Made by a program: the position numbers and the translations under genes
IMG/VR virus record: IMGVR_UViG_3300025133_000077
Coordinates: 1 to 64,000 of that record
DNA from: a virus
Strand: one strand, 5' to 3'
DNA: 64,000 nt
Shown here: piece after piece, positions 11,132-34,806 of the stretch
Layout: every line of letters begins with the position of its first letter
How positions within the stretch are numbered: the first letter of the stretch is position 1
Notes under the pieces: model-generated
The model's input: only the letters and a program-made list of their open reading frames with translations
What the model was told of the DNA's origin: nothing
Database searches by the model: none

Positions 11132-11146
11132 CGGCATAAGCAGAGT
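11132..11146 (+). promoter_or_regulatory. Candidate phage-RNAP promoter motif CGGCATAAGnAnAGT
   Basis: 13 of 15 nt identical to 16372-16386. The TAAG ends 36 nt before the first plus-strand start codon. Confidence 0.5.
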
Positions 11147-11176
11147 AGAGGAACACCCCTCGTAGGAGACAAAGCA

Positions 11177-11308
11177 GTGGCCAACGATCAGCAGAAGAAG
11201 AAGACGCCCCCCAAGGTCGAGAAGCGCTCCAGCGTGCGCCGCTTCTCGAACAACGTGAAGAAGGCGGTGGGCGGTCACCGCCGTCCCGCCCCCAAGAAGA
11301 AGGAGTAG
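11177..11308 (+). CDS. Small, very basic hypothetical protein (43 aa)
   Basis: AGGAG SD before GTG; MANDQQKKKTPPKVEKRSSVRRF...; GC3-rich codons. Confidence 0.55.
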   Translation: MANDQQKKKTPPKVEKRSSVRRFSNNVKKAVGGHRRPAPKKKE

Positions 11309-11312
11309 GACC

Positions 11313-11435
11313 GTGAGGTGGTTGCTCCTGTCGGGCTTCTACTTCGGCTTCCTCCTCGCACTCCACGACGGCATCCAGCTCGAGAAGATTCGAGTGCGTG
11401 CCCACATCGCGAAGGACGAGGACGAGGAGAAGTAG
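11313..11435 (+). CDS. Small membrane protein (40 aa)
   Basis: Below the ORF-track cutoff. MRWLLLSGFYFGFLLALHDGIQLEKIRVRAHIAKDEDEEK has an SD and exactly fills the gap between neighbours. Confidence 0.55.
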   Translation: MRWLLLSGFYFGFLLALHDGIQLEKIRVRAHIAKDEDEEK

Positions 11436-11750
11436 ATGGCCTACTGCCCCCTGTTGCCGGGGCACTGCCGGAACGCCACCGACTGTGGCGGGTGCAGCAC
11501 GTTCTCCGACGTGCTGCACCCGTACGCAGACGAGCTGTTCTGGGTCTGTCCCGATTGTCTTACGCCCCGTCGAGAGCCCAGCGGCTTCACCCTCCTGGGC
11601 CACTACCAGGAGATCGACTGCGACATCTGCAGCAAGCTCTCCAACCTGTGCCAAGCGGCTCTGCCTCCCGACGTACTGACGGCAGCCAAGTGGTTCGAGA
11701 TGCTCCAGCGCATCCTGGAGAAGGCGACCGAGGAGAACGAAGATGGATGA
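11436..11750 (+). CDS. Cys-rich (Zn-finger-like) hypothetical protein
   Basis: C..C...CGGC, CPDC and CDIC...C motifs; GAGGAG SD. Confidence 0.7.
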   Translation: MAYCPLLPGHCRNATDCGGCSTFSDVLHPYADELFWVCPDCLTPRREPSGFTLLGHYQEIDCDICSKLSNLCQAALPPDVLTAAKWFEMLQRILEKATEENEDG

Positions 11751-12108
11751 CTGCTGTGCCCAGTGCCAGGAGCAGTTCGAGCTCCGGGAGACCGGCATCC
11801 TTGAGGTCTACGAGGGGGAGGTCGGCTTCAATGACGAGGGGGAGGTCGCCTTCATCCCCGACGACTTCGCCCAGTACATCCACACCAAGTGCGCGTCGCG
11901 GTACTTCAACCCCGGCGAAGAGGCCGAGGTTCGCAGGGAGATCCGCGAGGAGGTGCTCTTGGATGGAGCCGCCCAGGTGAACGCCTACCTGGGTGGCGTG
12001 GAGAAGATGCGGCAGCGCGAAGAGGAAGAAGAGGAAGTCGCCGAGGAGTGGGTTCGCCCGCCCGCTCGGCGACGCTCCTCTCGTGGGGGGAGGTGGGGAG
12101 GACGATGA
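11743..12108 (+). CDS. Hypothetical protein with CxxC...HxxC Zn motif, acidic segment and Arg/Gly tail
   Basis: CAQC...HTKC; coupled to the upstream gene. Confidence 0.7.
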   Translation: MDDCCAQCQEQFELRETGILEVYEGEVGFNDEGEVAFIPDDFAQYIHTKCASRYFNPGEEAEVRREIREEVLLDGAAQVNAYLGGVEKMRQREEEEEEVAEEWVRPPARRRSSRGGRWGGR

Positions 12109-12114
12109 TCCTGG

Positions 12115-12132
12115 CGGGCCCGAAGGGGCCCG
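12115..12132. terminator. GC-rich hairpin between convergent genes
   Basis: CGGGCCC-GAAG-GGGCCCG between the stops at 12108 (+) and 12142 (-); no U-tract. Confidence 0.5.
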
Positions 12133-12141
12133 TCGCTTAGC

Positions 12142-14148
12142 TCACACCAGCGCCCTGCCGGGGTCTCGCCGGGGCGGCTTCTGCGACGGGAGCGGAGACT
12201 GCTGCGCGTCGAGCGGGTCCCGGGTCTCCTTGGAGCCCTGCATGATCTGCAAGACCAGCGAGTAGAAGTGCGGCTGCGTCGACTTCATCTTCTGCATCGC
12301 CGCGTAGGCGTCCGGCGGCTTCGTCTTGAGCAGCTTCCGCAGCTCGTTCGCCGTCCGCTTGGCCACGTAGAAGACGTCCTGACCCGTGCCCGGGTCAGCC
12401 GTCAGCTGAGAGGACGCCTCCTGCGGGACGCCTGTGACCGGAGAGGACTGCCCGTTCTCCGGGTACAGCTTGGCCCCTGCCGGGCCCTCGACGGGGCCGC
12501 TGCCGCCCTCCTGGCCACCCTCCTGGCCAGGGCCGAGCTGCATGGCTCCGCCCCCGCCCACGAGGTCGGACTGGGCCGCCTGCATGTAGAGCTGCATGAC
12601 CTGCTGAGCCTCGCCCTGGCCGACGGCCGCGGAGACCTGGGCCCGTCGCTGGTCCTCGGCCTGCTTCCTCGACTCGGAGCTGAGCAGCAGCCGCTCGGTC
12701 TCGTAGTCCTCGTTGAGTTCGCGCAGGAAGGTGTGGTCGGAGATCTTGTTGGCCTGGTTGGCCTGGAAGTAGATCATCGTGCGCTGCAGGTCGTCCGCCA
12801 TCTTGAAGCGGCGGAACTTCTTGCCCACGCGGGGCCAGCCCAACCACGCGCCGATGGAGTCGAACACCCAGTCCGTGAGGCCCTGGATGTCGGCGCGGTA
12901 GTTGATGAACTCGTTCTCTAGGTTCCGCATGGAGACCTGCGTGCCGGAGTAGCCGAGGCCGCCGAAGATAAACTCCTGCGGGACGTGGAGGCCGGCGACG
13001 ATGTTCTCTGCCCAGACGCGGTACTCCTGGTGGAGCACCATCGCTCGGCCCTGGCCGCCGACCATCTGGTGTCCCACGGGGAGGGGCAGGATCGGGATGT
13101 AGTTGGGGTCCCGCCGCCACCGCTCGATCTCCTCCTCCATCTGGCTCTTCCAGCCGGTGAGGGGCATCGTGGTGTACGGGTCGCTGGTCCCGGAGCCGGG
13201 CTGCGGGAAGATCATGCGCAGCGGCACGATGTGCTCGCGGGCGATGGCTTCCTGGCCCTTCTTGAGGATCTGCAGGTAGTAGGAGTCCTTGAGCACCGGC
13301 AGGATGCGGGACAGACCCCAGCCCTTGTCGTTCCCGTTGCCCGAGATGGACGGGCGCCGCATGTGGAAGAGCTGGCCCGGGGCGAACCGGAGGCCGGTCT
13401 TCTTGCGGGCGGCCTCGACGAAGACGTTGGGGATCTCCTCCTGAAGGTGGTTCCTTCCGATCATCAGCCGCGCCCGCGTGCGGGGGCTCATCTCGTAGTA
13501 GTACCTGCAGTGCCCGGTCTCCTCGTTCACATCGATGGCGATGCGCTCGGGGTCCCACCGGACGAGCCCGATCTTGTACGGGCTCCGCTGCCAGACATCG
13601 AGGGGCTTGGCGTTGCCCACCTTCCTGCACTTGGGGCAGGTGAGGCGGTAGTTCAGCTCCCGCCACTTGTAGTGGGGCCGCAGCTTCTTCGCCGGCGCCT
13701 GGTACTTGCAGTGGTTGCACTGCAGGAACTTCACGAAGGGGTAGTTGATCGAGGTGAAGGAGTTGCCGTAGCACTGGTAGTCCAGGCCGGTCTCCACCTG
13801 GAAGCTGCGGAACTTCAGGATCTGGTCCTTGAGGTACTTGTACTTCCGCGCCACCGCCTCGTGCTTGCTCTCGAACACCAGGTCGGTGATCGGGTACGAG
13901 GCCATCTTGTAGATGACCGCGTTCACCAGCGGGTTGGTGAAGAAGTAGTAGCGGCACCAGCGGAACAGCTTCTTCTGCGACGAGGGCAGGTAGGTGTGCG
14001 CTCCGTCGAAGAAGGGGCTGGGGTACGGCACGCCGGCCCGGCCCGAGGCCCCGAAGAAGCCCGAGCGCAGGTTGGCGAAGCCGCTGCCTCCGGCGGTGCC
14101 GCCGCTCACCCCGTACGTGGGCAGCCCGAAGTCGAATCCCTCAGCCAT
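12142..14148 (-). CDS. Putative portal protein with Zn-ribbon insertion
   Basis: Portal-like pattern: RWCRYYFFTNPLVNAVIYKMASYPI, DYQCYGNSF, LFHMRRP...GWGLSRILPVLK, IVAGLHVPQEFIFGG; Gly/Gln/Pro-rich C-terminal tail. Confidence 0.7.
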   Translation of the reverse strand: MAEGFDFGLPTYGVSGGTAGGSGFANLRSGFFGASGRAGVPYPSPFFDGAHTYLPSSQKKLFRWCRYYFFTNPLVNAVIYKMASYPITDLVFESKHEAVARKYKYLKDQILKFRSFQVETGLDYQCYGNSFTSINYPFVKFLQCNHCKYQAPAKKLRPHYKWRELNYRLTCPKCRKVGNAKPLDVWQRSPYKIGLVRWDPERIAIDVNEETGHCRYYYEMSPRTRARLMIGRNHLQEEIPNVFVEAARKKTGLRFAPGQLFHMRRPSISGNGNDKGWGLSRILPVLKDSYYLQILKKGQEAIAREHIVPLRMIFPQPGSGTSDPYTTMPLTGWKSQMEEEIERWRRDPNYIPILPLPVGHQMVGGQGRAMVLHQEYRVWAENIVAGLHVPQEFIFGGLGYSGTQVSMRNLENEFINYRADIQGLTDWVFDSIGAWLGWPRVGKKFRRFKMADDLQRTMIYFQANQANKISDHTFLRELNEDYETERLLLSSESRKQAEDQRRAQVSAAVGQGEAQQVMQLYMQAAQSDLVGGGGAMQLGPGQEGGQEGGSGPVEGPAGAKLYPENGQSSPVTGVPQEASSQLTADPGTGQDVFYVAKRTANELRKLLKTKPPDAYAAMQKMKSTQPHFYSLVLQIMQGSKETRDPLDAQQSPLPSQKPPRRDPGRALV

Positions 14149-15018
14149 CTACGCCGCCTTGCTCTGGAGGAGCCACGAGAACTCTCGGGCCTGCACAGCT
14201 TCCTGCTGGCGCCGGTGCACCATGTAGTTGTGGGCCACGAGCAGCTTGCCGCAGACGACATCCTCGCGCACATCGTCGCTCAGGTCTGCCCCTTCCCCAC
14301 CGTGCACCTGCCTCCACCGGGCGGCGACCGGGCGGGGGTCGTTCTTGTAGAAGGTCGAGACGTTGCGGCCTACCTCGTCCGGGATGCCCCGCGCCGGCCT
14401 GCCGTTCACCGTCTTCTCGTCCATGTCCGGGTTGAACCGCCCCACGCAGACGTCGCACCGCCCATCCTCGAGGTCGTCGTCGTCCTCGTTGCCGCAGTCC
14501 CCACAGCGGTAGGTGGGCTCGGCCACCACGCGCTGCGCGACGGCGAGGGGGCCCGGCAGGAACCAGACGCCGCGCTCCAGAGCCGAGGCCGCCATGAACC
14601 GGACCACCTCCTCCTGGTACGGCTCCTTGCGGATGTCCGAGACCATGTCGACGGCCGCCATCATCTGGGCAACTGTCGGTTGCTGAAGTGTCATGAAGTC
14701 GGGGGTGTTGTTGTTCAGCGCCTGCACCAGAGGGGCAAACACCGACCACGACGACCAGAAGCCGTTGGCCAGCAGCAGGTTGCGGATCGCCTGGATCTTG
14801 TTCTTGTTCAGCGCGCTGACCGTCACCCTGTGGGGACGGGAGTAGTGCTTCTGGAAGAGCTCCGAGAAGTCCTGCTCGATCTCGTACCAGAGCACATCGG
14901 AGTCCCACTCCAGCCAGTCCGACTTGAACACCGCGAAGAGGAGCCCGGCCAACACCGCCGGGTGCGCGTCGTGGTAGCCGAAGAAGAGGGCCGGCGACTC
15001 AGGCGCTGATGGTTCCAC
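14149..15018 (-). CDS. Hypothetical head-module protein with CxxC...CxxC Zn ribbon
   Basis: GTG at 15018 with GGAG SD; CGDC...CDVC; lies between the KxA-rich protein and the portal. Confidence 0.65.
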   Translation of the reverse strand: MEPSAPESPALFFGYHDAHPAVLAGLLFAVFKSDWLEWDSDVLWYEIEQDFSELFQKHYSRPHRVTVSALNKNKIQAIRNLLLANGFWSSWSVFAPLVQALNNNTPDFMTLQQPTVAQMMAAVDMVSDIRKEPYQEEVVRFMAASALERGVWFLPGPLAVAQRVVAEPTYRCGDCGNEDDDDLEDGRCDVCVGRFNPDMDEKTVNGRPARGIPDEVGRNVSTFYKNDPRPVAARWRQVHGGEGADLSDDVREDVVCGKLLVAHNYMVHRRQQEAVQAREFSWLLQSKAA

Positions 15019-16300
15019 GGGCGTGGCTCCTGCTGGCCGCCAGCCGCGCCACGACCACCTGCTTGGGGTAGGGCAGGGACTTGAAGACGGTGACGGGCTT
15101 CGCCATGAACTGGTCCGCCGCGTCATCGCCGAGCGCATCCCGGACACGGCCGAGGTCGTTGCGGGAGAGCCTCAGCAGGTCCGCCCCCGTCACCTTGTCG
15201 ATCCCCTTCATCCAGTGGTAGCCGGCGTCCTCGGACGCTGTCTTCTCGGAGAGGGCTGCGCGGTACGGGTCGGGCAGGGAGCGGTCCCACTCCTGGCTGA
15301 GCCCGTAGTGCTCGTCGAACTGCGTCAGCGCCTTGCCGAAGGCGTCGGGACCCTGGTGCGTGGCGACCGTGGCCAGCTTCATCAGGATGGCGCCGCCCCG
15401 CTCGTCGACCCGGCCCGCCCTGGCGTTGAGGTGGAGGACGAAGCTCTCGTTGAGCTGCTCGCCCCCGTACTGCGCCACCTTCTCGGTGACCTCGACCTCG
15501 AAGTGGTCGGCGGCGAGCTTGACGTTGCGGCAGTACTCCCGCCGGTCAGCGGGGTGGAAGCGGTCCCCGTACTCGTCGAAGTAGGCCATCGCCTGCTTGA
15601 CCTGCTCTTCGGTGTCAAGCGGGTAGCGGTCGTCGAGGGCCGCCGTCTTCCTCCGGGAGTGTCGATCCAGTGCGGCGTACGCTCCGTAGCCTGCCCCGAT
15701 GCCAAGAAGTGCGCCGCCCGCCCCCTTCGCTGCGCCACCGGCGGTGCGCTTCAGGGTCTCGGTCTTCGTCGCCCCCTGTTGCCGCGCCTTGCGGAAGCCG
15801 GCAGCCGCGCCGACCGTGCCTGCCCCAAGAGGGATGCCGGCCACGATGCCGGCTTCGATGAGGGTGAACGCCTGCTTCTCCCAGGCCCGGATGTCGACGA
15901 CGGCCTCGGCGATGCCGGCCACCTTCATCAGCATGCCGTCGCGGGAGCCGATCTCGGGCACAGCCGAGGCGACCTTGGCGACGAGCCCGGGGACGGTGTA
16001 GCCGCCCTCGTCCATCGTCTCCATCAGCTTGATGCCGGCGACCACGGCGGCCGTCTTCGGCATCTGGTCCCAGGTCCGCTCGAGGTACTGGGCACTGAGC
16101 CACGCCACCTCGGGCGAGGTGCAGGCGAACTTGCGGAGCTTGCCCTCGCTGCTGAGCATGACGACTCCGAAGTCGGAGTCGGGGTAGCGCGACAGCTCAT
16201 CGCGCTCGGGCAGTGACGCGGTCGCCACCTTCTCGGGGAGTGAGACCGACGCTGCCTTGAGCAGCCCCGGTCCCAGATCGTGCGGGTCGACAGCGAGCAT
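14999..16300 (-). CDS. K-x-A-motif-rich protein (putative scaffold or internal head protein)
   Basis: ATG at 16300 with GGAGG SD. About 11 KxA motifs (KAA, KVA, KTA, KQA, KLA) and a central Gly/Ala hydrophobic segment. Confidence 0.65.
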   Translation of the reverse strand: MLAVDPHDLGPGLLKAASVSLPEKVATASLPERDELSRYPDSDFGVVMLSSEGKLRKFACTSPEVAWLSAQYLERTWDQMPKTAAVVAGIKLMETMDEGGYTVPGLVAKVASAVPEIGSRDGMLMKVAGIAEAVVDIRAWEKQAFTLIEAGIVAGIPLGAGTVGAAAGFRKARQQGATKTETLKRTAGGAAKGAGGALLGIGAGYGAYAALDRHSRRKTAALDDRYPLDTEEQVKQAMAYFDEYGDRFHPADRREYCRNVKLAADHFEVEVTEKVAQYGGEQLNESFVLHLNARAGRVDERGGAILMKLATVATHQGPDAFGKALTQFDEHYGLSQEWDRSLPDPYRAALSEKTASEDAGYHWMKGIDKVTGADLLRLSRNDLGRVRDALGDDAADQFMAKPVTVFKSLPYPKQVVVARLAASRSHARGTISA

Positions 16301-16321
16301 GGGGCCTCCGATGACGGCTCG

Positions 16322-16351
16322 ATGATGTCTGCGGAGACGTCCTGATGTCAA
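16322..16351 (-). promoter_or_regulatory. Sigma70-like promoter for the head module
   Basis: Perfect TTGACA, 18-nt spacer, then CATCAT on the minus strand. Confidence 0.55.
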
Positions 16352-16371
16352 CGCAAGAACCCCGAGGATCT

Positions 16372-16386
16372 CGGCATAAGGACAGT
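16372..16386 (+). promoter_or_regulatory. Candidate phage-RNAP promoter motif CGGCATAAGnAnAGT heading the replication operon
   Basis: Matches 11132-11146. The TAAG ends 32 nt before the ATG at 16413. Confidence 0.5.
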
Positions 16387-16412
16387 GCCTACCAACAACA
16401 GGAGCCTATCAG

Positions 16413-16784
16413 ATGGCGATCAGCCGGGTCGGTGCTATCCCCGACCCTCCCTGCTTCGGCAAGCCCAGTTTTTACAACGAACGAGACGAGGACTGCCGCA
16501 CCTGTCACGCGAAGATCAGGTGCAAGGTCCAGGTCCGACAGAAGAAGAAGGGAGTCCCTGCCAAGAGCAAGAACTCCCGAGTCGACAGATCCTCCGTGGT
16601 GGAGGAAGATGACGCCCCCACTTTCAGGACCAGGAAGGAGCGCTCGACCACCTGGTTCGGCGCCCTCAAGCACAACTCCTTCATCCGGCTGTGTTCCACG
16701 TTCTTCCGCGAGCTGGCGTTCGGGGTGGAGCAGATTCCTTTGGAGCCGTACTCGGACCAGGAGGCGGAGGAGATCGATGACTGA
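16413..16784 (+). CDS. Cys-cluster hypothetical protein
   Basis: PCFG...DCRTC....C metal-binding pattern; AGGAG SD. Confidence 0.7.
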   Translation: MAISRVGAIPDPPCFGKPSFYNERDEDCRTCHAKIRCKVQVRQKKKGVPAKSKNSRVDRSSVVEEDDAPTFRTRKERSTTWFGALKHNSFIRLCSTFFRELAFGVEQIPLEPYSDQEAEEIDD

Positions 16785-17235
16785 CACCATCAACATCGGG
16801 GGGCTCATCCGGGCTGCTCGAAAGACGCGCTTCGGCAGCATGAGGAAGGCCGCAACGGCCATCGTCATCACGGATGCTCGTGGCACCCGCTCCCTGTCGG
16901 GAGAGGGGCTGCGGAAGATCGAGACGGGCCTCTCCCTCCCGTCTGCGAACGTGCTTAGCGCCCTGATCACCGGGTGGGAGCTCGGCAAGAAGGAGGCCGA
17001 CCAGCTGCGGTACGCCGTGCATGCGGCGCACGAACGCAAGGCCGGCTACGAGCCCCGGCAGAAGGAGGACCTCGGAGAGAACCGAGAGGCGGTCATCGCC
17101 TCTGCCGTCGGCGACATCCTCAGCAAGAGCAAGATCCTCGTCGAGGGGATGGTCGAAGAGGAGGATGACCAGGAAGCCTTCCTGGAGGAGCTGAAGACGA
17201 TCGCGGACAAGACGCTGCGAGAGTACTTCCGGTGA
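16777..17235 (+). CDS. XRE-family helix-turn-helix protein
   Basis: IGGLIRAARK...SMRKAA...LSGEGLRKIETGLSLPSANVLSAL; GGAGG SD. Confidence 0.7.
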   Translation: MTDTINIGGLIRAARKTRFGSMRKAATAIVITDARGTRSLSGEGLRKIETGLSLPSANVLSALITGWELGKKEADQLRYAVHAAHERKAGYEPRQKEDLGENREAVIASAVGDILSKSKILVEGMVEEEDDQEAFLEELKTIADKTLREYFR

Positions 17236-20762: not shown

Positions 20763-20770
20763 GAGACGCA

Positions 20771-22201: not shown

Positions 22202-23196
22202 ACGTCTCCTCCGTCGTCCGCCGCATCGCAGACGAACACCTCACTCGGTACAGGGAAGGAGCGGATCACGAGATCATCGGCTGCTGCCCCCTCCACGAGG
22301 ACAGCAGTCCCTCCTTCGCCATCAACGAGAAGACGGGGCTCTGGTGTTGCTACGGCGGCTGCGGTGGAGGGAGCCTCACCTACCTGCTCTACCGGCTGGA
22401 GTACAGCCGGCGGAACATCGACCGGCTCGTCGAGCCGATCAGGGCCCAGCTCCAGCGCCCACCCAAGAAGAGGATCAAGGATGTCGCGGACCCCTTCCGC
22501 GCACTCCACCCTCTTCCTGAAGCGCTGCTGGGCGTCTACGACGTCGACCGGCCGCACCCCATGCTCGTCGACATCTTCGAGGCAGATCTGCTTCGTCGGT
22601 ACGACGTGGGGTACGACCGGCACAACCACCGCATCACCTTCCCCATCAGGGATCTGTACGGGAACCTCGCAGGGTTCAGCGGGAGGGCCACGGCCCGTAC
22701 CCCGCCGGGCCCCGGCGGAGACATCCCGAAGTACAAGATCTACGACAAGGAGCTCATCCAGGACTACCCCGACTACAAGATCGACCGCGCAAGGCACCTG
22801 TACAACGCCGACCACGTCTACCCGAAGCTCTACTACTCCCGCGAGGAGGAGTGGCTGATTCTGGTGGAGGGGTTCAAGGCCGCGCTCTGGCTCATCCAGT
22901 GCGGCTTCCCCAACGTGGTGGCCTTCATGGGCGCCTCCCTCACCAACTCCGGGACAGCGTTGATCCAACGGATGACAGACCGCGTCATCCTCTTTCTGGA
23001 CAACGACATCACCGGACGGAAGAAGACCACCAAGGTGGGACGGATTCTGTCCGGGCCTGTCCGTAGACTGAAGGTCGTCGAGTACCCCTTCGACGCCTTC
23101 GCCCAACCCGATCACTTCGACCAAGAAGAGCTGACCTGGCTCTTCGATGACCACTGCCTGCCGTTTCGACGGTGGGCCAGGAGATACGCAGCATGA
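22198..23196 (+). CDS. DnaG-like primase
   Basis: CHC2 finger CPLHEDSSPSF...CYGGC; ITFPIRD..G...GFSGR; PKY; TOPRIM VEG...FLDND..G. Confidence 0.9.
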   Translation: MNVSSVVRRIADEHLTRYREGADHEIIGCCPLHEDSSPSFAINEKTGLWCCYGGCGGGSLTYLLYRLEYSRRNIDRLVEPIRAQLQRPPKKRIKDVADPFRALHPLPEALLGVYDVDRPHPMLVDIFEADLLRRYDVGYDRHNHRITFPIRDLYGNLAGFSGRATARTPPGPGGDIPKYKIYDKELIQDYPDYKIDRARHLYNADHVYPKLYYSREEEWLILVEGFKAALWLIQCGFPNVVAFMGASLTNSGTALIQRMTDRVILFLDNDITGRKKTTKVGRILSGPVRRLKVVEYPFDAFAQPDHFDQEELTWLFDDHCLPFRRWARRYAA

Positions 23197-24536
23197 GCAC
23201 TTTCCGTTCCCGCACCCGCCGTTCCCGCAACGCCTCCAGCAAGCGCCGTGGAGGAGGCGGTGCCCGCGCCTTCTTCTCCGACGAGATCCGCTTCAAGTCG
23301 GTCCCCGTCAAGACCAGCGGCATCCCGACGCTCTTCATCGACGCCAAGTACCCGAACCCCCGCGGCGACGCGGGTGAGTGGGACGCCGAGTCGCCGTACT
23401 ACGTCTACAAGCAGGGCACCGCGGTCATCAAGGTCCGCGGGGAGTTCAAGGGCATGCGGACCGACTGCATGCCGGGCTCCATCAAGGCCCCCGACGAGAC
23501 CTACCCGGCCGACGACCCGCGCGTCTACCACAACCGGGACGACTTCCAGGACTCCTTCTGGAACTACCTGGACGACCAGAACGACGCCCGGATCAGCATC
23601 GGCTACAAGAACGTGCTGAACCTGCTGGACCTCCGGCCCCACCACGAGGTCGAGAAGACCAACCGGGACGGGGACATCATCAAGAAGCAGAGCGGCGACG
23701 CCGTGATGCACCGCGTCCCCTACGAGAAGGGCGGGGAGTACGACGGGGAGCCGATCGTCGTCGGTCGCCGGGGCTACTCGGTGTTCGGCGCCCGGCACAT
23801 CGAGCAGGTCATGGACCTGGAGCTGCAGGTCGAGGACTTCTGCCGCTCCTGCCGCGACGGGATCATCGTCCGGGAGGCCTTCATCTGCTCGCGCTGCGAC
23901 GAGGTGATGGTCGACCTCACCCAGGCCAACCTGAGCGAGGAGGAGGCGGAGAAGATCTACCAGACCGGCATGAAGTGCCCGCACTGCAAGGGCGCGGGCG
24001 TCTACCCCGAGGAGCTCCTCGGCTGCCGCATCCCCGACGACGAGGGCGACCCCTCCGACGACGTCTGCTGCGATCAGCCCTCCCGGGCGTCGCTGTTCGA
24101 CGTGGTGTGGCACGTCCGCAAGACCGGGACGGGCACCGACACGGCCGTCAGCTCGTACCGGAAGGGCAAGGACCGGAGCTGGGTCTGGCTGGAGAACTTC
24201 GAGGTCCTGGACGGCGAGGCGCTCATCGATCCCGAGTTCGAGGTCGAGGAGACCGAGACCGGGTTCAAGCCGAAGTACGTGTGGCACGAGGACGTCGCGA
24301 AGATGCTCACGCCCTACGACTTCAACAAGGTGCGCAACATCGGAGTCAAGGGCCTGCCGAACCACAACCTCGCCGACTTCCTCGGCATCGACCTGACCGG
24401 CGACCTCGCCGAGTACAACGACAAGAAGGCCGGGGATAAGGACGACGGCGGCAACAGCCGCGGTGGTGGCGGGGGCTCCCGGCGCTCCGGCTCCGGTCGT
24501 CGCTCCAGCCGCGGTGGCTCCGGCAGCCGTTACTGA
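23193..24536 (+). CDS. Putative single-stranded DNA-binding protein with multiple Zn motifs
   Basis: Lies between primase and polymerase; acidic/aromatic core; RKTGTGTDT; CRSC, CSRC, CPHC. Function is inferred from context only. Confidence 0.5.
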   Translation: MSTFRSRTRRSRNASSKRRGGGGARAFFSDEIRFKSVPVKTSGIPTLFIDAKYPNPRGDAGEWDAESPYYVYKQGTAVIKVRGEFKGMRTDCMPGSIKAPDETYPADDPRVYHNRDDFQDSFWNYLDDQNDARISIGYKNVLNLLDLRPHHEVEKTNRDGDIIKKQSGDAVMHRVPYEKGGEYDGEPIVVGRRGYSVFGARHIEQVMDLELQVEDFCRSCRDGIIVREAFICSRCDEVMVDLTQANLSEEEAEKIYQTGMKCPHCKGAGVYPEELLGCRIPDDEGDPSDDVCCDQPSRASLFDVVWHVRKTGTGTDTAVSSYRKGKDRSWVWLENFEVLDGEALIDPEFEVEETETGFKPKYVWHEDVAKMLTPYDFNKVRNIGVKGLPNHNLADFLGIDLTGDLAEYNDKKAGDKDDGGNSRGGGGGSRRSGSGRRSSRGGSGSRY

Positions 24537-24548
24537 TCAACCTGAGCC

Positions 24549-24574
24549 TGGGGCGGCCCTTCGGGGCCGCCCCA
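24549..24574 (+). terminator. Intercistronic C(UUCG)G hairpin
   Basis: Perfect 11-bp stem TGGGGCGGCCC-TTCG-GGGCCGCCCCA between the putative SSB and the polymerase; no U-tract. Confidence 0.7.
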
Positions 24575-24587
24575 TTGGAGGACCTCG

Positions 24588-26603
24588 ATGCTCCGACCTC
24601 CTGCAGAGTTCGTGGACACCCAGGAGAAGGCCGAGAAGGTCCTCCGTTACCTGATGAAGCACCGGCGCGTGGGCGTCGACACCGAGACCACCGGCCTCAA
24701 GATCCACCGGGACGTCGTCCTGTTCTGGGGCCTCGCGACGATGGATCGTCGCTTCTGCATTCTGGGGGACCTGCTCCCCTACTTCTCGCCGCTCTTCATG
24801 GCCAAGAACATCACCAAGGTGTTCACCAACGCCAAGTACGACCGGCACATCATCGCCAACTCCGGCGGCGGCCTCTTCCAGGGACGGATCGTCTGCACGC
24901 TGGTCCAGGACTGGCTGCTGGACGAGAACCGCCGGAGCCACGGCCTCAAGCAGTGCGTCAAGGATCACTTCGGCGACCCCATGCCGGCCTTCAAGGACGT
25001 GTTCGGCAAGGCCGTGCGCGCTGAGAACCAGGCCGGCGAGATGCTGGCGATGCTCCACTCCCCGATCCAAGAGGAACGGGACAAGGCCATCGAGTACACC
25101 AGCCGTGACCCCTGGGAGTCCCTGCGGCTCGCCAACCACCTGGAAGCGCAGCTCGAAGAGCAGGTGGTCGACGACGGCGGCTACAACCTGCTCCAGCACT
25201 ACTGGGACGTGGAGGAGCCCTTCGGCCAGGTGCTCTGGAACATGGAGCGCCGCGGGGTGATGATCAACTCCGACTACCTGGAGGAGATCGCCCCCGGCAT
25301 CGAGGAGCAGATCGACCTGATCGAGCGGAAGATGAACCGGGCTGCCGGCCGCGTCGTGAACCTCAAGTCCACGCCCCAGCTCCGCGAGCTCTTCTTCGAC
25401 CAGCTCGGGGTGATGCCCACCAAGTTCGGCAAGCCCCACGCCAAGACCGGCAAGGTCATGCCGTCCTGCGACAAGGAGATCTTGGCCGCCTGGGCGGAGG
25501 GAGACATCGGCTTCTGGGACGGCGAGCGGGAGATTCAGGGCGACGAGGAGGACGTGGCCTACGTCCAGGACCTCGCCGGCGCCTTGACCGAGCACCGCGG
25601 GCTGTCGAAGTTCCTGGGGACCTACGTGCACGGCATGGAGCCGTTCATCGATGAGAACTTCCGCATCCACGGGGTGATCAACCAGCACATCACGCGCACC
25701 GGGCGCATCTCGATGAGCAAGCCCAACCTCACCAACATCCCTCGCCTGGAGAACGACAAGTTCGGCATCCGCTACGCCTTCATCGCCGACGGAGGGCGCA
25801 CCCTGCTGGTGCGCGACTACGAGCAGCTCGAGATGCGGGTCATGGCCCACTTCTCCGGCGACAAGAACATGATCCAGACCATCCGCAGCGGGAAGGACAT
25901 GCACGCGTTCACCGTCGGTGAGATGCCGATGGGCTTCTCCTACGCCGAGGTGGTGGCGGCCAAGGCGAAGAAGGACGCCGGGCTCCCGCTGACGGCGCGG
26001 GAGAAGGAGGCGTGCACGAAGAGGACGGGCGCCAAGGCTGTGGGCTTCGGCCTCATCTACGGCATCGGGGAGGTGAAGCTCGGGCGTCAGCTCGGACTGC
26101 CCATCATCGTCCGCATCGACAAGAAGGGGAACAAGCGCGAGACCTGCCCCGAGGCGAAGAAGCTGATCGGCCACTACTTCGGGGTCTTCCCCGGAGCCAA
26201 GCGGTTCATCAAGGACACGCACAGCTGGACCCACAGCGAAGGCTACGTCCAGACCTACCTCGGCCGGTTCCGTCGGCTGCCCACGATCTTCTCCAGCAAC
26301 CGGCGGTTGTCGACTCAGGCCGAGCGCCAGTCGGTCAACTCCATCATCCAGGGGAGCGCGGCCGACATCGTGAAGATGGCGATGATCAAGTGCGAGAACG
26401 ACCCCGATCTGCAGGCCGTGGATGCGCGGATGCTGCTGCAGATCCACGACGAGCTGATGTTCAGCGTCCCCGACCACGACGACATCAAGTCCGACGTGGA
26501 CCGGAGGGTGCAGGAACACATGGAGAGCCCGTTCAACGAAGAGCTGGCCACGGCCCTGCCTACGTCGGGCGGCTACGCCGTGAGCTGGGGAGAAGCCAAG
26601 TAG
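24588..26603 (+). CDS. polA: Family A DNA polymerase (3'-5' exonuclease plus polymerase, no 5' nuclease)
   Basis: Exo motifs DTETTGL, NAKYD, YTSRD; TGRIS..PNL; motif A DYEQLEMR; motif B KAVGFGLIYG; motif C IHDE. Confidence 0.95.
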   Translation: MLRPPAEFVDTQEKAEKVLRYLMKHRRVGVDTETTGLKIHRDVVLFWGLATMDRRFCILGDLLPYFSPLFMAKNITKVFTNAKYDRHIIANSGGGLFQGRIVCTLVQDWLLDENRRSHGLKQCVKDHFGDPMPAFKDVFGKAVRAENQAGEMLAMLHSPIQEERDKAIEYTSRDPWESLRLANHLEAQLEEQVVDDGGYNLLQHYWDVEEPFGQVLWNMERRGVMINSDYLEEIAPGIEEQIDLIERKMNRAAGRVVNLKSTPQLRELFFDQLGVMPTKFGKPHAKTGKVMPSCDKEILAAWAEGDIGFWDGEREIQGDEEDVAYVQDLAGALTEHRGLSKFLGTYVHGMEPFIDENFRIHGVINQHITRTGRISMSKPNLTNIPRLENDKFGIRYAFIADGGRTLLVRDYEQLEMRVMAHFSGDKNMIQTIRSGKDMHAFTVGEMPMGFSYAEVVAAKAKKDAGLPLTAREKEACTKRTGAKAVGFGLIYGIGEVKLGRQLGLPIIVRIDKKGNKRETCPEAKKLIGHYFGVFPGAKRFIKDTHSWTHSEGYVQTYLGRFRRLPTIFSSNRRLSTQAERQSVNSIIQGSAADIVKMAMIKCENDPDLQAVDARMLLQIHDELMFSVPDHDDIKSDVDRRVQEHMESPFNEELATALPTSGGYAVSWGEAK

Positions 26604-26639
26604 AAAATAACTCATTTCGGATTGGGGTATGCTGGCGCC

Positions 26640-27209
26640 ATGAAGAGATTCTCGGACCGTTTGAAGGAGAAGGGCGTCGTAATGCGCCCCGCCAGCGTCC
26701 CCAACCCCATCGTGCGCTCCGAGGAAGGCGTGTGGGTGATCGTAGAGGCCCGGGACAGGTCAGAGCGCTGCCGCTTCCTCGTAGACGAGGACGTCTATGC
26801 CGCGCTGGTGGCTCCCCACAGGTGGAACGTGGGGGGCGTAGAGCGCAACCGCGTCTACCACTCGGGGCGCACGCCCTCCGGCAACTCCACGGTGCTGCTG
26901 GCAAGGTTCATCTTCGACCCGCCCGCAGACCGCGAGGTCGACCACATCAACGGTGATCCCCTGGACAATCGCTACGAGAACCTGCGGGTCGCGACCCGCA
27001 AGCAGAACGAGGAGAACCGCCATGTGTCGCGGGGCAAGAGCAAGTACCGCGGCGTGCACCCCTGCAAGCAGACGGGACGATGGAGGGCCCAGGTGACCCA
27101 CAACTACACGGCGCACAAGAGCCCTCGCTTCGACACCGAGGAAGAGGCTCGTGCATGGGCAGTCGCAAAGCGGGACGAGCTGTTCACCCACCACCGGCAG
27201 TCCTCATGA
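26640..27209 (+). CDS. HNH endonuclease with C-terminal AP2 domain (free-standing homing endonuclease)
   Basis: VDHINGDPLDNRYENLR; SKYRGV...GRWRAQV...FDTEEEA. Confidence 0.9.
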   Translation: MKRFSDRLKEKGVVMRPASVPNPIVRSEEGVWVIVEARDRSERCRFLVDEDVYAALVAPHRWNVGGVERNRVYHSGRTPSGNSTVLLARFIFDPPADREVDHINGDPLDNRYENLRVATRKQNEENRHVSRGKSKYRGVHPCKQTGRWRAQVTHNYTAHKSPRFDTEEEARAWAVAKRDELFTHHRQSS

Positions 27210-27538
27210 CCGAGCCCCTCATCAAGTGGCAGAGCTGGGAGGTCGTCGGTGTGGAGGTCTTCCTCTGGGCCGACGACCTCCCGGAACACACCAACCCGCT
27301 CACGGACCTCCCCACCATCACCGAGGAGGAGGGCATCAAGGAGGGCGACTACGTCATCGTCGGGAGCATCCTCGGGTGGGTCAAGGCGAGGATCTACAGC
27401 GGGGAGGGGAGCCTGTACGCCAAGAGCGACACCGGCTCCATGATGTACTTCCTGGAGTTCGCCAAGGACGCTCGAAAGTGCTGGGTCTGCATCGGCTCCG
27501 GCAACCTCGCGGCCATCAAGAAGCTGGAGCTGAAGTGA
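27206..27538 (+). CDS. Hypothetical protein
   Basis: ATGA-coupled; begins MTEPLIKWQSW. Confidence 0.6.
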   Translation: MTEPLIKWQSWEVVGVEVFLWADDLPEHTNPLTDLPTITEEEGIKEGDYVIVGSILGWVKARIYSGEGSLYAKSDTGSMMYFLEFAKDARKCWVCIGSGNLAAIKKLELK

Positions 27539-27828
27539 CGAAGACGGAGCTGATCGAGAGGGTCGCCGAGAACCTGGACATGGGGGGCAACAAAGCCCTG
27601 AAGAAGGGCCTAGTGGCCGACGTTCTGGGGTGTATACTCGACGAGGTCGAGGGCGCGATGCGGGACAAGATCGAAGTGAAGATCGAGGGCTTCGGCACCC
27701 TGAAGCCCGTGTTCCACGCAGAGCGCTCACAGCACAACATCCAGACAGGCAGGACGGTCGTCCGAGAGGCTGGCTACAGCCTCCGCTTCCGTCCCGCCAA
27801 GCGCCTCAAGCAGGCGTTGAAGGAGTGA
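27535..27828 (+). CDS. HU/IHF family DNA-binding protein
   Basis: MTKTELIERVAE...VKIEGFGTL...NIQTG...FRPAKRLK. Confidence 0.88.
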   Translation: MTKTELIERVAENLDMGGNKALKKGLVADVLGCILDEVEGAMRDKIEVKIEGFGTLKPVFHAERSQHNIQTGRTVVREAGYSLRFRPAKRLKQALKE

Positions 27829-27830
27829 TC

Positions 27831-28004
27831 GTGGAGAAGTACGGCGTCGTGACCGAGAAGCCCAAGCCCGGCGAGAAGACCGCGGCCCGCAACGACCAGG
27901 AGAGGCGCGGCTCGAACGTGCCCATCTCCGACTCCCAGGGCACGAAGCCCTGGGAACCCAAGAGCCCTCCGCCGCTGAAGAAGCCGGCGACCCCCAACAA
28001 GTAG
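27831..28004 (+). CDS. Small hypothetical protein with a KTAA motif
   Basis: AGGAG SD; MEKYGVVTEKPKPGEKTAARND...GTKPWE. Confidence 0.55.
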   Translation: MEKYGVVTEKPKPGEKTAARNDQERRGSNVPISDSQGTKPWEPKSPPPLKKPATPNK

Positions 28005-28062
28005 ACCTCCTCTCCTGAGGAGCCAGAGACGGGCCTGTGACGCAGGCTCGAAGGAACCCCCT

Positions 28063-29274
28063 ATGGCCAAACGAAAGACCGCGACCCGCGGCCCCACCCG
28101 CAAGGAGCGCCTCGAGGCGTTCGAGAAGCACGTCGGCAAGGAGTACAAGGGCAAGGGCCTGCTGATGAACGGGGACGAGTACGAGGCGCCCTTCATGGTG
28201 CGCCGGATCCCCACCGGCATCCTGGAGCTCGACCTCGCCCTGAACGGCGGCTTCCCCTGTGGCGGCGTCTCCGAGATCATCGGAGCCGAGTCCTCGGGCA
28301 AGACCACCCTGCTCAACCAGGTGTTCCGGTACCAGCAGCAGATCCTCGGTGACGAGGCCGCCCTCGCCATCGGCATGACCGAGCAGCCCTTCGACAGAGG
28401 CCACGCCAAGTTCAACTGCGGCGTCGACGTCGCCATCCACCCGAAGGAGATCGACGCCATCGAGGCCACGCTGAAGCGGAAGCTCACCAAGGAGGAACGG
28501 ACCGCGCTGGGCAGCCAGACGGGCTACTTCAAGGAGCTGGTCGCCGGCACCGTCGAAGCGCTGTACGACATGCTCCTCGACGCCGTCGCGTCCAAGGCGT
28601 TCCACGTCATCGGCCTGGACTCCTGGGGCTCCATCCTCACCGAGGCGGAGCACGACTCCACCATGCAGGACAAGAAGTACGCCGGCGGCGGCGGGGCCAG
28701 CGTCAACGCCTCCTGGGCTCGGCGCCTCTCCCCCGAGTTCGTCATCCCCAAGGACGGGGAGCGCAACTACACCGCGCTGATCGGGATCAACCAGTACCGC
28801 GTGAAGATGAACGCCAACCCCAAGGCCGGGGCCATGAAGCAGATGAGCGTGCAGGGCGGCTACGCCCTCAAGCACATCAAGCTGGTCTCGATCTTCCTGG
28901 AGTCGTTCGATCTCACCGAGGAGGTCCGCGGCCGGCGCACCACCGTCGGCAAGCGCGTCAAGTGGACCGTGATGAAGGGGAAGGCCGGCTGCCACGACGG
29001 ACACAAGGGCGAGTACGAGATCCGCTACGGCCTCGGCATCGATGTGCTCCGCGAGCACCTGATGGCGGGCCTGCTCCGCGGGGTCGTGGCCAACAAGGGG
29101 GCCTGGTACTACCTGCTGGACCCTGATGACGGCACGGAGGTCTTGAAGGCCTGCGGCAAGGACGCCTTCCTCGACCTGCTCAAGAACGAAGACGGAGCCC
29201 TGGAGTGGCTCCGCGACGCCGTCATCGACTACGAGGTCCGCGAGAACGGCGCCTCCTTCATCCCACCTCGATGA
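28063..29274 (+). CDS. recA: RecA/UvsX-like recombinase
   Basis: IPTGILELDLALNGGFP.G...EIIGAESSGKTT; LDS; INQYR; GGYALKH; GAWY. Confidence 0.92.
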   Translation: MAKRKTATRGPTRKERLEAFEKHVGKEYKGKGLLMNGDEYEAPFMVRRIPTGILELDLALNGGFPCGGVSEIIGAESSGKTTLLNQVFRYQQQILGDEAALAIGMTEQPFDRGHAKFNCGVDVAIHPKEIDAIEATLKRKLTKEERTALGSQTGYFKELVAGTVEALYDMLLDAVASKAFHVIGLDSWGSILTEAEHDSTMQDKKYAGGGGASVNASWARRLSPEFVIPKDGERNYTALIGINQYRVKMNANPKAGAMKQMSVQGGYALKHIKLVSIFLESFDLTEEVRGRRTTVGKRVKWTVMKGKAGCHDGHKGEYEIRYGLGIDVLREHLMAGLLRGVVANKGAWYYLLDPDDGTEVLKACGKDAFLDLLKNEDGALEWLRDAVIDYEVRENGASFIPPR

Positions 29275-29483
29275 TCCTCGCTGCTGTAGCGATCATCTCT
29301 GTCTCTGCCGTGATCGGGTTCCTTCTCGGAACCCACCTGCTCGGTCAGCGACGGCGCAGGGTGCCCCTCAACGACAGCGGCTACGGAAGGCCCTGCCCTG
29401 TCTGCGGGGCGGGGCCTACCACTCTGTGCCGCGAAGACGGCGCCACGCTCCTGTGGGAGATGCACGAGAGGAGAGCAGGATGA
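29271..29483 (+). CDS. Small membrane-anchored Zn-ribbon protein
   Basis: N-terminal transmembrane helix, then CPVC...C...H..R. Confidence 0.55.
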   Translation: MILAAVAIISVSAVIGFLLGTHLLGQRRRRVPLNDSGYGRPCPVCGAGPTTLCREDGATLLWEMHERRAG

Positions 29484-29911
29484 GGCTCTACTTGCGAGTC
29501 GCCGGAGGAGACTGGTTCTCTGGCTTCGCCGTAGTCGACATCGGCGCGGAGTACCTCAACACGCTTCGGCGCCGGCTGCAGCGCATCCAGCAGATGCACG
29601 AGCAGGACTCCGAGGCGTACCGGCACGTCTACTGGGACGGCTCCCCCGACATCTTCGAGGGAGACCCCTTCGAGGGCCAAGCGCCGCAGGCACAGGCCGA
29701 GCTGCAGATGAACTGCGTCGACGCCTACGGAGGCGTCTACTGGAAGTGGGTCATCAAGCACACCAATCGCGATCTGTACACCGAGATCCTGAAGCTGCCC
29801 CAGATCGAAGAGGCCCTGGCCGACGGAGGGTTCTGGGTCAGCCCGGAGCTGCAAGATCTGTGGCTGGAAGACGGGATAAGCGAGGCAACACCCACCATGG
29901 AGAAGCACTGA
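29480..29911 (+). CDS. Hypothetical protein
   Basis: ATGA-coupled with SD; begins MRLYLRVAGG. Confidence 0.6.
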   Translation: MRLYLRVAGGDWFSGFAVVDIGAEYLNTLRRRLQRIQQMHEQDSEAYRHVYWDGSPDIFEGDPFEGQAPQAQAELQMNCVDAYGGVYWKWVIKHTNRDLYTEILKLPQIEEALADGGFWVSPELQDLWLEDGISEATPTMEKH

Positions 29912-34804: not shown

Positions 34805-34806
34805 AG

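What the first reader, a model, noticed from the sequence alone, without database searches (positions are those of the whole stretch)
11132..29880. Shared CGG(C/G)ATAAG motif heads the plus-strand transcription units
CGGCATAAGcAgAGT (11132) and CGGCATAAGgAcAGT (16372) lie in the two divergent intergenic regions. Both are preceded by GAGGAT, and their TAAG ends 36 and 32 nt before the first start codon. A variant, CGGGATAAG (29872), ends 30 nt before the HAD gene. All three are followed by an A/C-rich stretch and an SD. The motif is not sigma70-like, so it is the best candidate promoter for the phage RNAP.
Basis: partly seen in the sequence, partly recalled or inferred. Interest (0 to 1): 0.75.

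Follow-up and report, generated by a model that had tools for sequence, protein, structure and literature searches.

The report
Phage-specific two-box ATAAG promoter
The shared CGG(C/G)ATAAG word is the downstream half of a conserved two-part promoter that heads the early and replication genes of a phage carrying its own bacterial-type RNA polymerase and sigma factor; its spelling differs from ordinary bacterial promoters, so the phage's own sigma probably reads it.

Summary
Observation confirmed. CGGCATAAG occurs exactly twice in the 74.7 kb record, once in each divergent intergenic region and both times on the plus strand. The variant CGGGATAAG lies 30 nt before the HAD/PNK gene.

Interpretation partly supported. 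The motif is a promoter, but it is sigma-type and two-part: tGCAAG, 16 nt, GG(C/G)ATAAG, then a conserved T-G about where transcription should start.

- **Synteny.** In a leave-one-out scan, 29 of 36 distinct related IMG/VR loci carry it at the same place, divergent from the RNA polymerase gene. Neither control orientation gave a hit.
- **Complete relatives.** Two complete 186 kb relatives have 24 and 30 copies, and 77-88% of these lie in the 6-9% of the genome that is intergenic.
- **Cultured relative.** Salmonella phage Arash has 40 GGTATAAN copies, 39 of them on the gene-sense strand. The last base is G in 31 and T in 1.
- **Third site.** Two closer relatives keep it, in another reading frame and another gene context.
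- **Sigma.** The record encodes a divergent sigma with regions 2-4, just outside the window.
- **Contrast.** The polymerase and portal-block genes instead carry ordinary TTGACn-N18-TAnnnT promoters placed back to back with the motif.

No RNA data exist, so start sites and the reading enzyme are inferred. This scan has noted the same ATAAG promoter class on at least eight other phage genomes. The papers I searched do not describe it.

The parts
11112..11117 (+). -35-like box of promoter P_B (CACAAT; family consensus tGCAAG)
   Evidence: Positions -22..-17 relative to G0 = 11134. The CAA core at this spacing is conserved in 22 syntenic sites. It overlaps the -35 of the opposite-strand promoter.
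11132..11146 (+). It contains the -10 box GGCATAAG (11133-11140). Predicted start site A 11147.
   Evidence: 20.4 bits. The syntenic site is present in 29/36 relatives in a leave-one-out scan. T12-G/A13 is conserved.
11177..12108 (+). Unit B: four small ORFs (43, 40, 104, 121 aa) driven by P_B, ending at a hairpin at 12109-12141
   Evidence: Gene calls, no Pfam hits, B3 homologues in close relatives, hairpin sequence.
16352..16357 (+). -35 box of promoter P_D (CGCAAG)
   Evidence: It lies directly beside the TTGACA of the opposite-strand promoter.
16372..16386 (+). It contains the -10 box GGCATAAG (16373-16380). Predicted start site G 16387.
   Evidence: 29.6 bits. Equivalent sites head the helicase/replication unit in L001, L004, L007, L031, L032, L033 and L035.
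16413..34804 (+). Unit D: replication and nucleotide-metabolism genes (helicase, UDG, DnaB, primase, PolA, HNH, RecA-like, HAD/PNK, RusA-like and others)
   Evidence: Pfam and PHROGs hits, gene calls.
29850..29880 (+). Internal promoter P_HAD: TGCAAG (29850-29855), an 18-nt gap (2 nt longer than the consensus), GGGATAAG (29873-29880). Predicted start site A 29887.
   Evidence: 20.3 bits with a spacer penalty. ACGGGATAAGCG plus GCA.AC.CCC is invariant in L071 and L072. In L071 the upstream gene is absent and the motif's TAA serves as the stop codon of a different ORF in another frame.
11087..11116 (-). Ordinary sigma70-type promoter of the RNA polymerase gene: TTGTGC (11116-11111), 18 nt, TACACT (11092-11087), 28 nt before ATG 11058
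   Evidence: TTGcnn-N18-TAnnnT with a spacer of exactly 18 nt occurs in 21 of 35 RNAP-upstream regions.
16322..16351 (-). Ordinary sigma70-type promoter of the C1-C2-portal unit: TTGACA, 18 nt, CATCAT
   Evidence: Found independently by the consensus scan, 10/12 matches. Equivalents in L001, L004, L031 and L033.
4759..11058 (-). Single-chain beta-beta' RNA polymerase (2099 aa), candidate core enzyme
   Evidence: Pfam RNA_pol_Rpb2_6 5e-61, Rpb1_2 2e-27, Rpb1_5 4e-22.
12142..16300 (-). C1, C2 and a portal-like protein (C3, 12142-14148), a unit conserved in synteny across the family
   Evidence: tblastn synteny. C3 resembles portal clusters in the Atlas: feature score 0.93, TM 0.65-0.70 (lead-level evidence).

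Best explanation
The motif is the -10 half of a sigma-dependent, two-box promoter. Its consensus is tGCAAG, 16 nt, GG(C/G)ATAAG-Aa, with initiation about 7 nt after the final G at a conserved T-G/A step. The predicted start sites are 11147, 16387 and 29887.

Three copies lie in this fragment. They drive the small-ORF unit B, the replication unit D and an internal unit that starts at the HAD/PNK gene.

Its region 4 would contact the CAA box and its region 2 the ATAAG box, whose invariant G replaces the T that housekeeping sigmas need at -7. The core enzyme is most likely the phage's single-chain beta-beta' polymerase, possibly delivered in the virion as in Salmonella phage Arash.

Shown here: the conservation, position, orientation and copy number of the motif, and the presence of the sigma. 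Inferred: the start sites, which sigma and which core read the motif, and the timing.

My odds: promoter, about 0.9. Read by the phage sigma, about 0.7. On the phage core rather than the host core, about 0.55.
For: 1. Two conserved blocks at a fixed distance in 22 syntenic sites. G-21, A-19, A-18, G-1, G0, A2-G6 and T12-G13 carry the information and the spacer carries none.

2. Leave-one-out scan: 29 of 36 distinct related loci (RNAP 32-62% identical, GC 42-70%) have a hit of at least 10 bits within 260 nt upstream of the RNAP gene in the divergent orientation. Both control orientations give 0 of 36. Weaker spellings are present in L001-L003.

3. Complete relatives. G001 has 30 hits against 4 in the reversed-sequence control, and 23 of the 30 are intergenic where 6.4% of the genome is intergenic (P = 4e-22). 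G003 has 24 hits against 3, and 21 are intergenic at 9.2% (P = 3e-19). Hits typically lie about 20 nt before a start codon that has a ribosome-binding site.

4. Cultured Salmonella phage Arash. GGTATAAG occurs 31 times against 5 in the control. Of 40 GGTATAAN sites, 39 are on the gene-sense strand, and the last base is G 31, A 4, C 4, T 1. T12-G13 is conserved at the same offset although the sites were selected on the octamer alone.

5. The third site is conserved at the DNA level in a different frame and gene context.

6. A sigma is present. Pfam gives Sigma70_r3 30 bits and r4 20 bits. A profile search against PDB matches HrdB/SigA at E = 3e-16 over regions 2-4. The AlphaFold model has pLDDT 80.5, and Foldseek matches sigmaS, sigB and sigA at probability 1.0. 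Homologues occur in 7 of 8 related records searched.

7. In G001 and G005, and in Arash (gp9-gp10), the sigma gene itself sits behind this motif.

8. Contrast class. The RNAP and portal-block genes carry TTGACn-N18-TAnnnT, so the phage holds two distinct promoter spellings side by side.

9. Arash virions contain beta, beta' and sigma by mass spectrometry (PMC10585845).

10. No Rfam family matches and the leaders have no significant RNA fold.
Against: No 5'-end or expression data exist for this or any related phage, so every start site is a prediction.

Nothing links this particular sigma to this particular motif beyond co-occurrence. In this record the sigma gene is not preceded by the motif. 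One 91%-complete relative (G002) carries a strong motif, yet no sigma was found in it.

At the two divergent regions the -35 box overlaps or abuts the -35 of the opposite ordinary promoter, so part of its conservation may belong to that promoter. In Arash the -35 signal is weak, 0.3-0.4 bits per position.

In Arash the spelling TGGTATAAG differs from an extended -10 host promoter by one base only.

The third site has a spacer 2 nt too long in this phage and lies in coding sequence.

Only three copies exist in the 74.7 kb available.

Some copies in G001 lie among virion-type genes, so 'early' is not established.
Confidence: 0.7

Rival explanations
1. The promoter is read by the phage sigma bound to the host core RNA polymerase, as with T4 gp55 or SPO1 gp28. 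The phage beta-beta' enzyme would then serve other promoters.
For: Phage sigmas that redirect the host core are the textbook case (own knowledge). The sigma has all core-binding regions of bacterial sigmas. A second, unexplained set of promoters must exist for the 40 kb virion block, where neither motif class was found.
Against: The phage encodes a complete bacterial-type catalytic core. In Arash the core is packed in the virion together with the sigma. Sigma and RNAP co-occur throughout the lineage. The motif stays the same across phages of 42-70% GC, presumably with very different hosts.
Confidence: 0.15
2. The promoter is read entirely by host RNA polymerase holoenzyme, either with the housekeeping sigma (as a weak extended -10 promoter) or with a host alternative sigma of the sigma28/group 3 type.
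For: The architecture is that of bacterial promoters: a 17-nt hexamer spacing, G at -14 and A at -11. Arash's TGGTATAAG is one base away from TGnTATAAT. From memory, the sigma28 -10 element GCCGATAA shares GATAA with the motif.
Against: The base at -7 is G, not T: 22 of 22 in the seed set, and G 31 against T 1 in Arash sites chosen without regard to that base. The consensus scan for sigma70 sites does not call these sites, but it does call the neighbouring minus-strand promoter. The phage keeps ordinary TTGACn-N18-TAnnnT promoters next to them, so two distinct specificities are in use. The spelling is conserved across phages from very different GC backgrounds, whereas a host alternative sigma would not be expected in all hosts.
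Confidence: 0.1
3. The motif is not a promoter. It would be a binding site for a phage regulator, or an RNA-level leader element that controls translation or stability.
For: It lies at a fixed short distance before ribosome-binding sites. Several relatives have a hairpin just downstream of it.
Against: It is asymmetric, strictly co-oriented with the downstream gene, and made of two boxes separated by a non-conserved spacer with no pairing potential. No Rfam family matches. The leaders in this phage fold no better than shuffles, z from -0.24 to +0.53. It occurs at the head of every divergent unit, where a promoter must exist.
Confidence: 0.05

Closest known systems
ATAAG-type promoter signal in other RNAP-encoding phages (mReC lineage, Weinheimer & Aylward 2020, PMC7481178; Salmonella phage Arash, PMC10585845)
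   Same: The core is the same (GGnATAAG, then T-G 5 nt further on). So are the orientation and the position before non-virion genes, and the company of a bacterial-type RNAP and a sigma. This scan has noted the class on at least eight other genomes.
   Different: Neither paper mentions a promoter. The word 'promoter' has 0 occurrences in both, and 'sigma' has 0 in the mReC paper. Here the local spelling is GG(C/G)ATAAG with a strong GCAAG -35 box. Arash uses TGGTATAAG with a weak tCCAAT box. Vibrio phage D181 shows no GGNATAAG excess but does show a strand-biased GTTATAAG, 17 to 1.
Bacterial group 3 sigma promoters, e.g. sigma28/FliA (TAAA-N15-GCCGATAA; consensus quoted from memory)
   Same: Two boxes, a G-rich stretch directly upstream of an (G)ATAA core, and an A-rich -35 box at nearly the same distance. 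The phage sigma's best NCBIfam matches are SigB/F/G and FliA/WhiG.
   Different: All NCBIfam scores are far below the family cut-offs (30-40 bits against 190-234). The -35 box is GCAAG rather than TAAA. The final G is invariant. The resemblance is a lead, not a test.
Housekeeping sigma70/sigmaA promoters, including extended -10 (TTGACA-N17-TGnTATAAT)
   Same: 17-nt hexamer spacing, A at -11, ATAA core, G at -14, and the expected distance to the start site.
   Different: G instead of the near-invariant T at -7, C/G instead of T at -12, and GCAAG instead of TTGACA. True sigma70-type promoters sit next to the motif on the other strand.
Phage-sigma promoters of T4 (gp55, TATAAATA) and SPO1 (gp28, gp33/34) (own knowledge)
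   Same: A phage-encoded sigma gives a private promoter spelling to one class of phage genes.
   Different: Those sigmas use the host core, and T4 late promoters have no -35 box. Here the phage also brings a bacterial-type core of its own.
Promoters of jumbo-phage multisubunit RNAPs (phiKZ, AR9; review PMC7598289; details from own knowledge)
   Same: A phage-encoded multisubunit RNAP with its own promoter motifs, and virion delivery of one enzyme.
   Different: Those enzymes have split, highly divergent subunits and no sigma, and they recognise short single-block motifs at the start site. Here the enzyme is close to bacterial RNAP, a sigma is present and the promoter has two boxes.

Membership tests
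sigma70-family two-box promoter (any sigma of the family) | Two conserved boxes separated by a non-conserved spacer of fixed length (16-18 nt between hexamers) | tested here: met
   tGCAAG at -22..-17 and (C/G)ATAAG at +1..+6 give a 17-nt spacer, and the spacer columns carry under 0.35 bits. The finding is reproduced by the leave-one-out scan.
sigma70-family two-box promoter (any sigma of the family) | Intergenic, co-oriented with the gene downstream, a short distance before the start codon | tested here: met
   77% and 88% of hits are intergenic in G001 and G003 (P 4e-22 and 3e-19). The distance is 20-36 nt. 39 of 40 Arash sites are on the gene-sense strand.
sigma70-family two-box promoter (any sigma of the family) | A cognate sigma with regions 2 and 4 is available | tested here: met
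   The sigma lies at record 65272-66072 (minus strand). It matches SigA/HrdB at E = 3e-16 over regions 2-4 and has a sigma fold by Foldseek. That it is the cognate sigma for this motif is not shown.
sigma70-family two-box promoter (any sigma of the family) | Primary transcripts start 6-8 nt downstream of the -10 box | not testable with these tools
   No RNA run was listed. The only indirect sign is the conserved T12-G13 step.
Housekeeping sigma70/sigmaA promoter | -10 hexamer with T at its last position (-7) and a TTGACA-like -35 box | tested here: not met
   G at -7 in 22 of 22 seed sites. In Arash sites chosen blind to that base the counts are G 31, A 4, C 4, T 1. The sigma70 consensus scan does not call these sites.
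sigma28/FliA-type promoter | TAAA-N15-GCCGATAA consensus, read by a FliA/WhiG-family sigma | tested here: inconclusive
   The consensus is recalled from memory and only GATAA is shared. The phage sigma's FliA_WhiG scores are 20-37 bits against a cut-off of 190.
T7-type single-subunit RNAP promoter | A contiguous block of about 20 bp read by a single-subunit RNAP | tested here: not met
   The polymerase is of the multisubunit beta-beta' type, and the motif is bipartite with a free spacer.

The most novel reading that the evidence does not exclude
The ATAAG promoters are read immediately after infection by a virion-delivered holoenzyme made of a single-chain beta-beta' core and a group-3-like sigma whose -10 pocket accepts G instead of T at -7. 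The polymerase and portal genes would be left to host RNA polymerase through the ordinary promoters placed back to back with them. That would be an N4-like inverted programme, run by a bacterial-type rather than a T7-type virion enzyme.
Probability: 0.3. Interest if true: 0.8.

Novelty: new variant of a known kind. Interest (0 to 1): 0.6.

Why it matters
The RNAP-encoding Caudovirales lineage (mReC) is widespread, and its polymerase branches deeply in the RNAP tree. Its transcription has never been studied at the bench.

A defined promoter consensus, a candidate sigma and a cultured member that carries the same signal (Arash on Salmonella) make the system directly testable. The open questions are which enzyme starts where, whether the holoenzyme is injected, and how a sigma reads G at -7.

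The promoter word also gives a practical annotation tool. It marks transcription units and separates non-virion from virion genes in the many uncultured genomes of this lineage.

Tried and rejected
- Megablast of 11000-17500 against phage records found no match.
- The first related-loci run, with the whole 2099-aa protein, did not finish. A 600-aa piece worked.
- RNA evidence: no RNA holder was listed.
The 188,377-nt contig that carries the identical sigma could therefore not be walked, and the full-genome scan of this very phage was not done.
- The HAD protein was not found in five related fragments. The RecA-like protein then gave two closer relatives.
- GAGGAT as part of the motif: rejected, because it lies in the spacer at different offsets and is not conserved.
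- The hit at 24434 (13.6 bits, inside gene 23193-24536, 147 nt from the next start) is treated as chance.
- A weight matrix built from the RNAP-upstream ordinary promoters finds only that one site per genome, and a loose TTG-N18-TAnnnT pattern is not enriched. This class could therefore not be extended to the virion block.
- Rfam found nothing, and the leader folds are not significant.
- In Vibrio phage D181, GGNATAAG is not enriched: 20 matches against 24 in the control. Only GTTATAAG is strand-biased, and its position relative to genes was not checked.
- Complex prediction for sigma with polymerase was not run. It is a textbook pair and would not separate phage core from host core.
- A literature search for the motif words found nothing relevant.

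Full report
**What the window is.** The window is the first 64 kb of a 74.7 kb IMG/VR virus record. The record has 66.6% GC, linear ends and a CheckV completeness of about 40%. The protein identical to its sigma also occurs on a 188 kb contig, and complete relatives are about 186 kb long with terminal repeats.

A self-trained gene caller gives a clean map:
- A minus unit runs from 11058 to the left end. It holds a 2099-aa single-chain beta-beta' RNA polymerase (Pfam Rpb2_6 5e-61) and a 1100-aa polyvalent protein.
- Plus unit B, 11177-12108, holds four small ORFs.
- A minus unit, 16300-12142, holds C1, C2 and a portal-like C3.
- Plus unit D, 16413-34804, holds helicase, UDG, DnaB, primase, PolA, RecA-like, HAD/PNK and other genes.
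- A 40 kb minus block of giant virion-type genes follows.

Only two intergenic regions are divergent: 11059-11176 and 16301-16412.

**The observation.**
- CGGCATAAG, and even CATAAG, occur exactly twice on both strands of the whole record, once in each divergent region and both times on the plus strand.
- CGGSATAAG has 3 matches in the window against 0.25 expected.
- The 13/15 identity of the two 15-mers is reached by 4 of 300 shuffles.
- The third site lies inside the last codons of ORF 29480-29911, not in a gap.
- GAGGAT precedes both main sites, but at different offsets.

**What it is: evidence from relatives.** A 600-aa piece of the polymerase retrieved 45 related loci, 32-62% identical and 42-70% GC. 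Synteny is conserved: replication unit, then C1-C2-portal, then a block of small divergent genes, then the RNAP gene.

At the place that corresponds to 11059-11176, on the strand pointing away from the RNAP gene, nearly all loci carry the same word. Aligning 22 such sites shows two boxes:
- tGCAAG lies at -22..-17.
- GG(C/G)ATAAG lies at -1..+6, counted from the second G.
- A free 16-nt stretch lies between them.
- A further conserved T-G/A lies at +12/+13.

Between the hexamers tGCAAG and (C/G)ATAAG the spacer is 17 nt, the canonical distance for sigma70-family promoters. The T-G step lies 7 nt after the -10 hexamer, where initiation is expected.

In a leave-one-out scan, 29 of 36 distinct loci have a hit of at least 10 bits there in the divergent orientation, and none in either control orientation. 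The closest relatives (L001-L004) carry weaker spellings such as GACAAT...GAGATAAG at the same place. The equivalent of the 16372 site heads the helicase unit wherever the locus reaches that far.

**Genome-wide test.** I ran it on two complete relatives instead.

| Genome | Hits (at least 12 bits) | Reversed-sequence control | Hits in intergenic DNA | Intergenic share of genome | P |
|---|---|---|---|---|---|
| G001 | 30 | 4 | 23 | 6.4% | 4e-22 |
| G003 | 24 | 3 | 21 | 9.2% | 3e-19 |

The hits are mostly about 20 nt before a start codon with a ribosome-binding site. No site from G003 was used to build the matrix.

In the present record the scan finds 16374 (29.6 bits), 11134 (20.4 bits) and 29874 (20.3 bits, with a spacer 2 nt longer). 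It also finds one weak coding hit at 24434, which I regard as chance. It finds nothing in the 55 kb of minus-strand units.

**The third site.** Two closer relatives (RecA-like protein 83% identical) were found.
- The block ACGGGATAAGCG..GCA.AC.CCC is invariant in all three genomes while the flanks diverge.
- In L071 the gene that contains the motif here is absent. The motif's TAA is there the stop codon of a different ORF in another frame, and a GCACG box stands at the canonical distance.
- Conservation that does not depend on reading frame argues for a DNA signal, so an internal promoter before the HAD/PNK gene is likely. In this phage it is weakened by the longer spacer.

**A cultured relative.** Salmonella phage Arash has split beta and beta' subunits, with RNAP about 30% identical.
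- GGTATAAG occurs 31 times, 30 of them on the gene-sense minus strand. The control gives 5.
- Of 40 GGTATAAN sites, 39 are on that strand, just upstream of non-structural genes and tRNA genes.
- The last base is G 31, A 4, C 4, T 1.
- Although these sites were chosen by the octamer alone, T12-G13 is again conserved at the same offset. A weak tCCAAT-like signal appears at the -35 position.
- The single plus-strand copy precedes gp9-gp10, and gp10 is the sigma.
- Arash virions contain beta, beta' and sigma by mass spectrometry (PMC10585845).

Vibrio phage D181 shows no excess of GGNATAAG. It shows a 17:1 strand bias of GTTATAAG, which I did not follow up further.

**Who reads it.** The record encodes a sigma70-family protein at 65272-66072 on the minus strand, just outside the window and inside the virion-gene block.
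- Pfam gives Sigma70_r3 at 30 bits and r4 at 20 bits.
- A profile of 18 homologues matches HrdB/SigA structures at E = 3e-16 across regions 2 to 4.
- The AlphaFold model (pLDDT 80.5) matches sigmaS, sigB and sigA by Foldseek at probability 1.0.
- Its best NCBIfam matches are SigB/F/G and FliA/WhiG, all far below the cut-offs.
- Homologues are present in 7 of 8 related records searched. In G001 and G005 the sigma gene itself sits directly behind the motif.

A sigma with regions 2 and 4 fits a two-box promoter.

The invariant G where housekeeping sigmas require T argues against the host's primary sigma. So does the fact that the phage keeps ordinary promoters right next to the motif:
- TTGTGC-N18-TACACT lies before the RNAP gene. 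The spacer is exactly 18 nt in 21 of 35 relatives.
- TTGACA-N18-CATCAT lies before C1. The consensus scan found it independently, and it has equivalents in relatives.

The -35 boxes of the two classes overlap (11111-11116 against 11112-11117) or abut (16346-16351 against 16352-16357), giving back-to-back pairs.

**What remains inferred.** No RNA data exist, so the start sites 11147, 16387 and 29887 are predictions.
- That this sigma reads this motif rests on co-occurrence, and on the resemblance, recalled from memory, to group 3 sigma promoters.
- That the core enzyme is the phage's rather than the host's rests on the virion proteome of a distant relative and on the lineage-wide pairing of RNAP and sigma.
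- Part of the -35 conservation at the divergent regions may belong to the opposite promoter.
- Timing is open. The motif heads small ORFs and replication genes here and in Arash, but a few copies in G001 lie among virion-type genes.

**Rivals.** In order of my odds, these are the phage sigma on the host core, the host holoenzyme alone, and a regulator site or RNA element. Against the RNA element, Rfam finds nothing and the leaders fold no better than shuffles.

**Novelty.** The lineage is published as mReC (PMC7481178), but that paper mentions neither promoter nor sigma. The Arash paper mentions no promoter. A full-text search for the motif words found nothing relevant. This scan has already noted the same ATAAG promoter class on at least eight other genomes of the lineage, with concordant readings. 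I therefore class it as a new variant of a known kind: a sigma-type phage promoter with a private spelling, belonging to an unstudied viral transcription machine that can be tested in a cultured phage.

Noticed in passing
11087-11116 (-) and 16322-16351 (-): The RNAP gene and the C1-C2-portal unit carry ordinary sigma70-type promoters (TTGTGC-N18-TACACT and TTGACA-N18-CATCAT). Their -35 boxes overlap or abut the -35 boxes of the ATAAG promoters on the other strand. The spacer of exactly 18 nt is conserved in 21 of 35 relatives.
   Followed up: partly
L041, L031, L027, L037 (upstream of the RNAP start): In several relatives the -10 box of the RNAP-gene promoter ends only 6-10 nt before the start codon and no ribosome-binding site is present. 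The RNAP mRNA may be leaderless there.
   Followed up: no
record 65272-66072 (-), outside the window (L046:1480-2280): This is the divergent sigma70-family gene inside the virion-gene block, translationally coupled to the gene upstream. In G001, G005 and Arash its homologue is directly preceded by the ATAAG promoter. Here and in the closest relatives it is not.
   Followed up: partly
12109-12141, 24537-24587, 28005-28062, 34805-34829, 61841-61913: GC-rich hairpins lie in the short gaps. Those at 12109-12141 and 34805-34829 sit between convergent units and look like bidirectional terminators without T runs.
   Followed up: no
12142-14148 (-): C3 is the most conserved neighbour of the RNAP gene. 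It has no Pfam, PHROG or PDB sequence match but resembles portal-protein clusters in the ESM Atlas (feature score 0.93, TM 0.65-0.70).
   Followed up: partly
L010-L037, about 9000 (-): leaders of the P_B equivalents: Many relatives have a short GC-rich hairpin starting right at the predicted start site, for example in L012, L021, L025, L032 and L037. The leaders in this window do not fold significantly.
   Followed up: partly
Arash OQ632216.1 59089-59096 (-): One GGTATAAG copy sits just upstream of a tRNA-Asn gene, and others stand at the edges of tRNA clusters. The signal therefore also appears to drive tRNA genes.
   Followed up: no
26682-27209 (+): An HNH/AP2 homing-endonuclease-like ORF lies directly after the PolA gene.
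   Followed up: no
P0001: A protein identical to this sigma is recorded on a 188,377-nt contig, so a probably complete genome of this phage exists in public assemblies.
   Followed up: no
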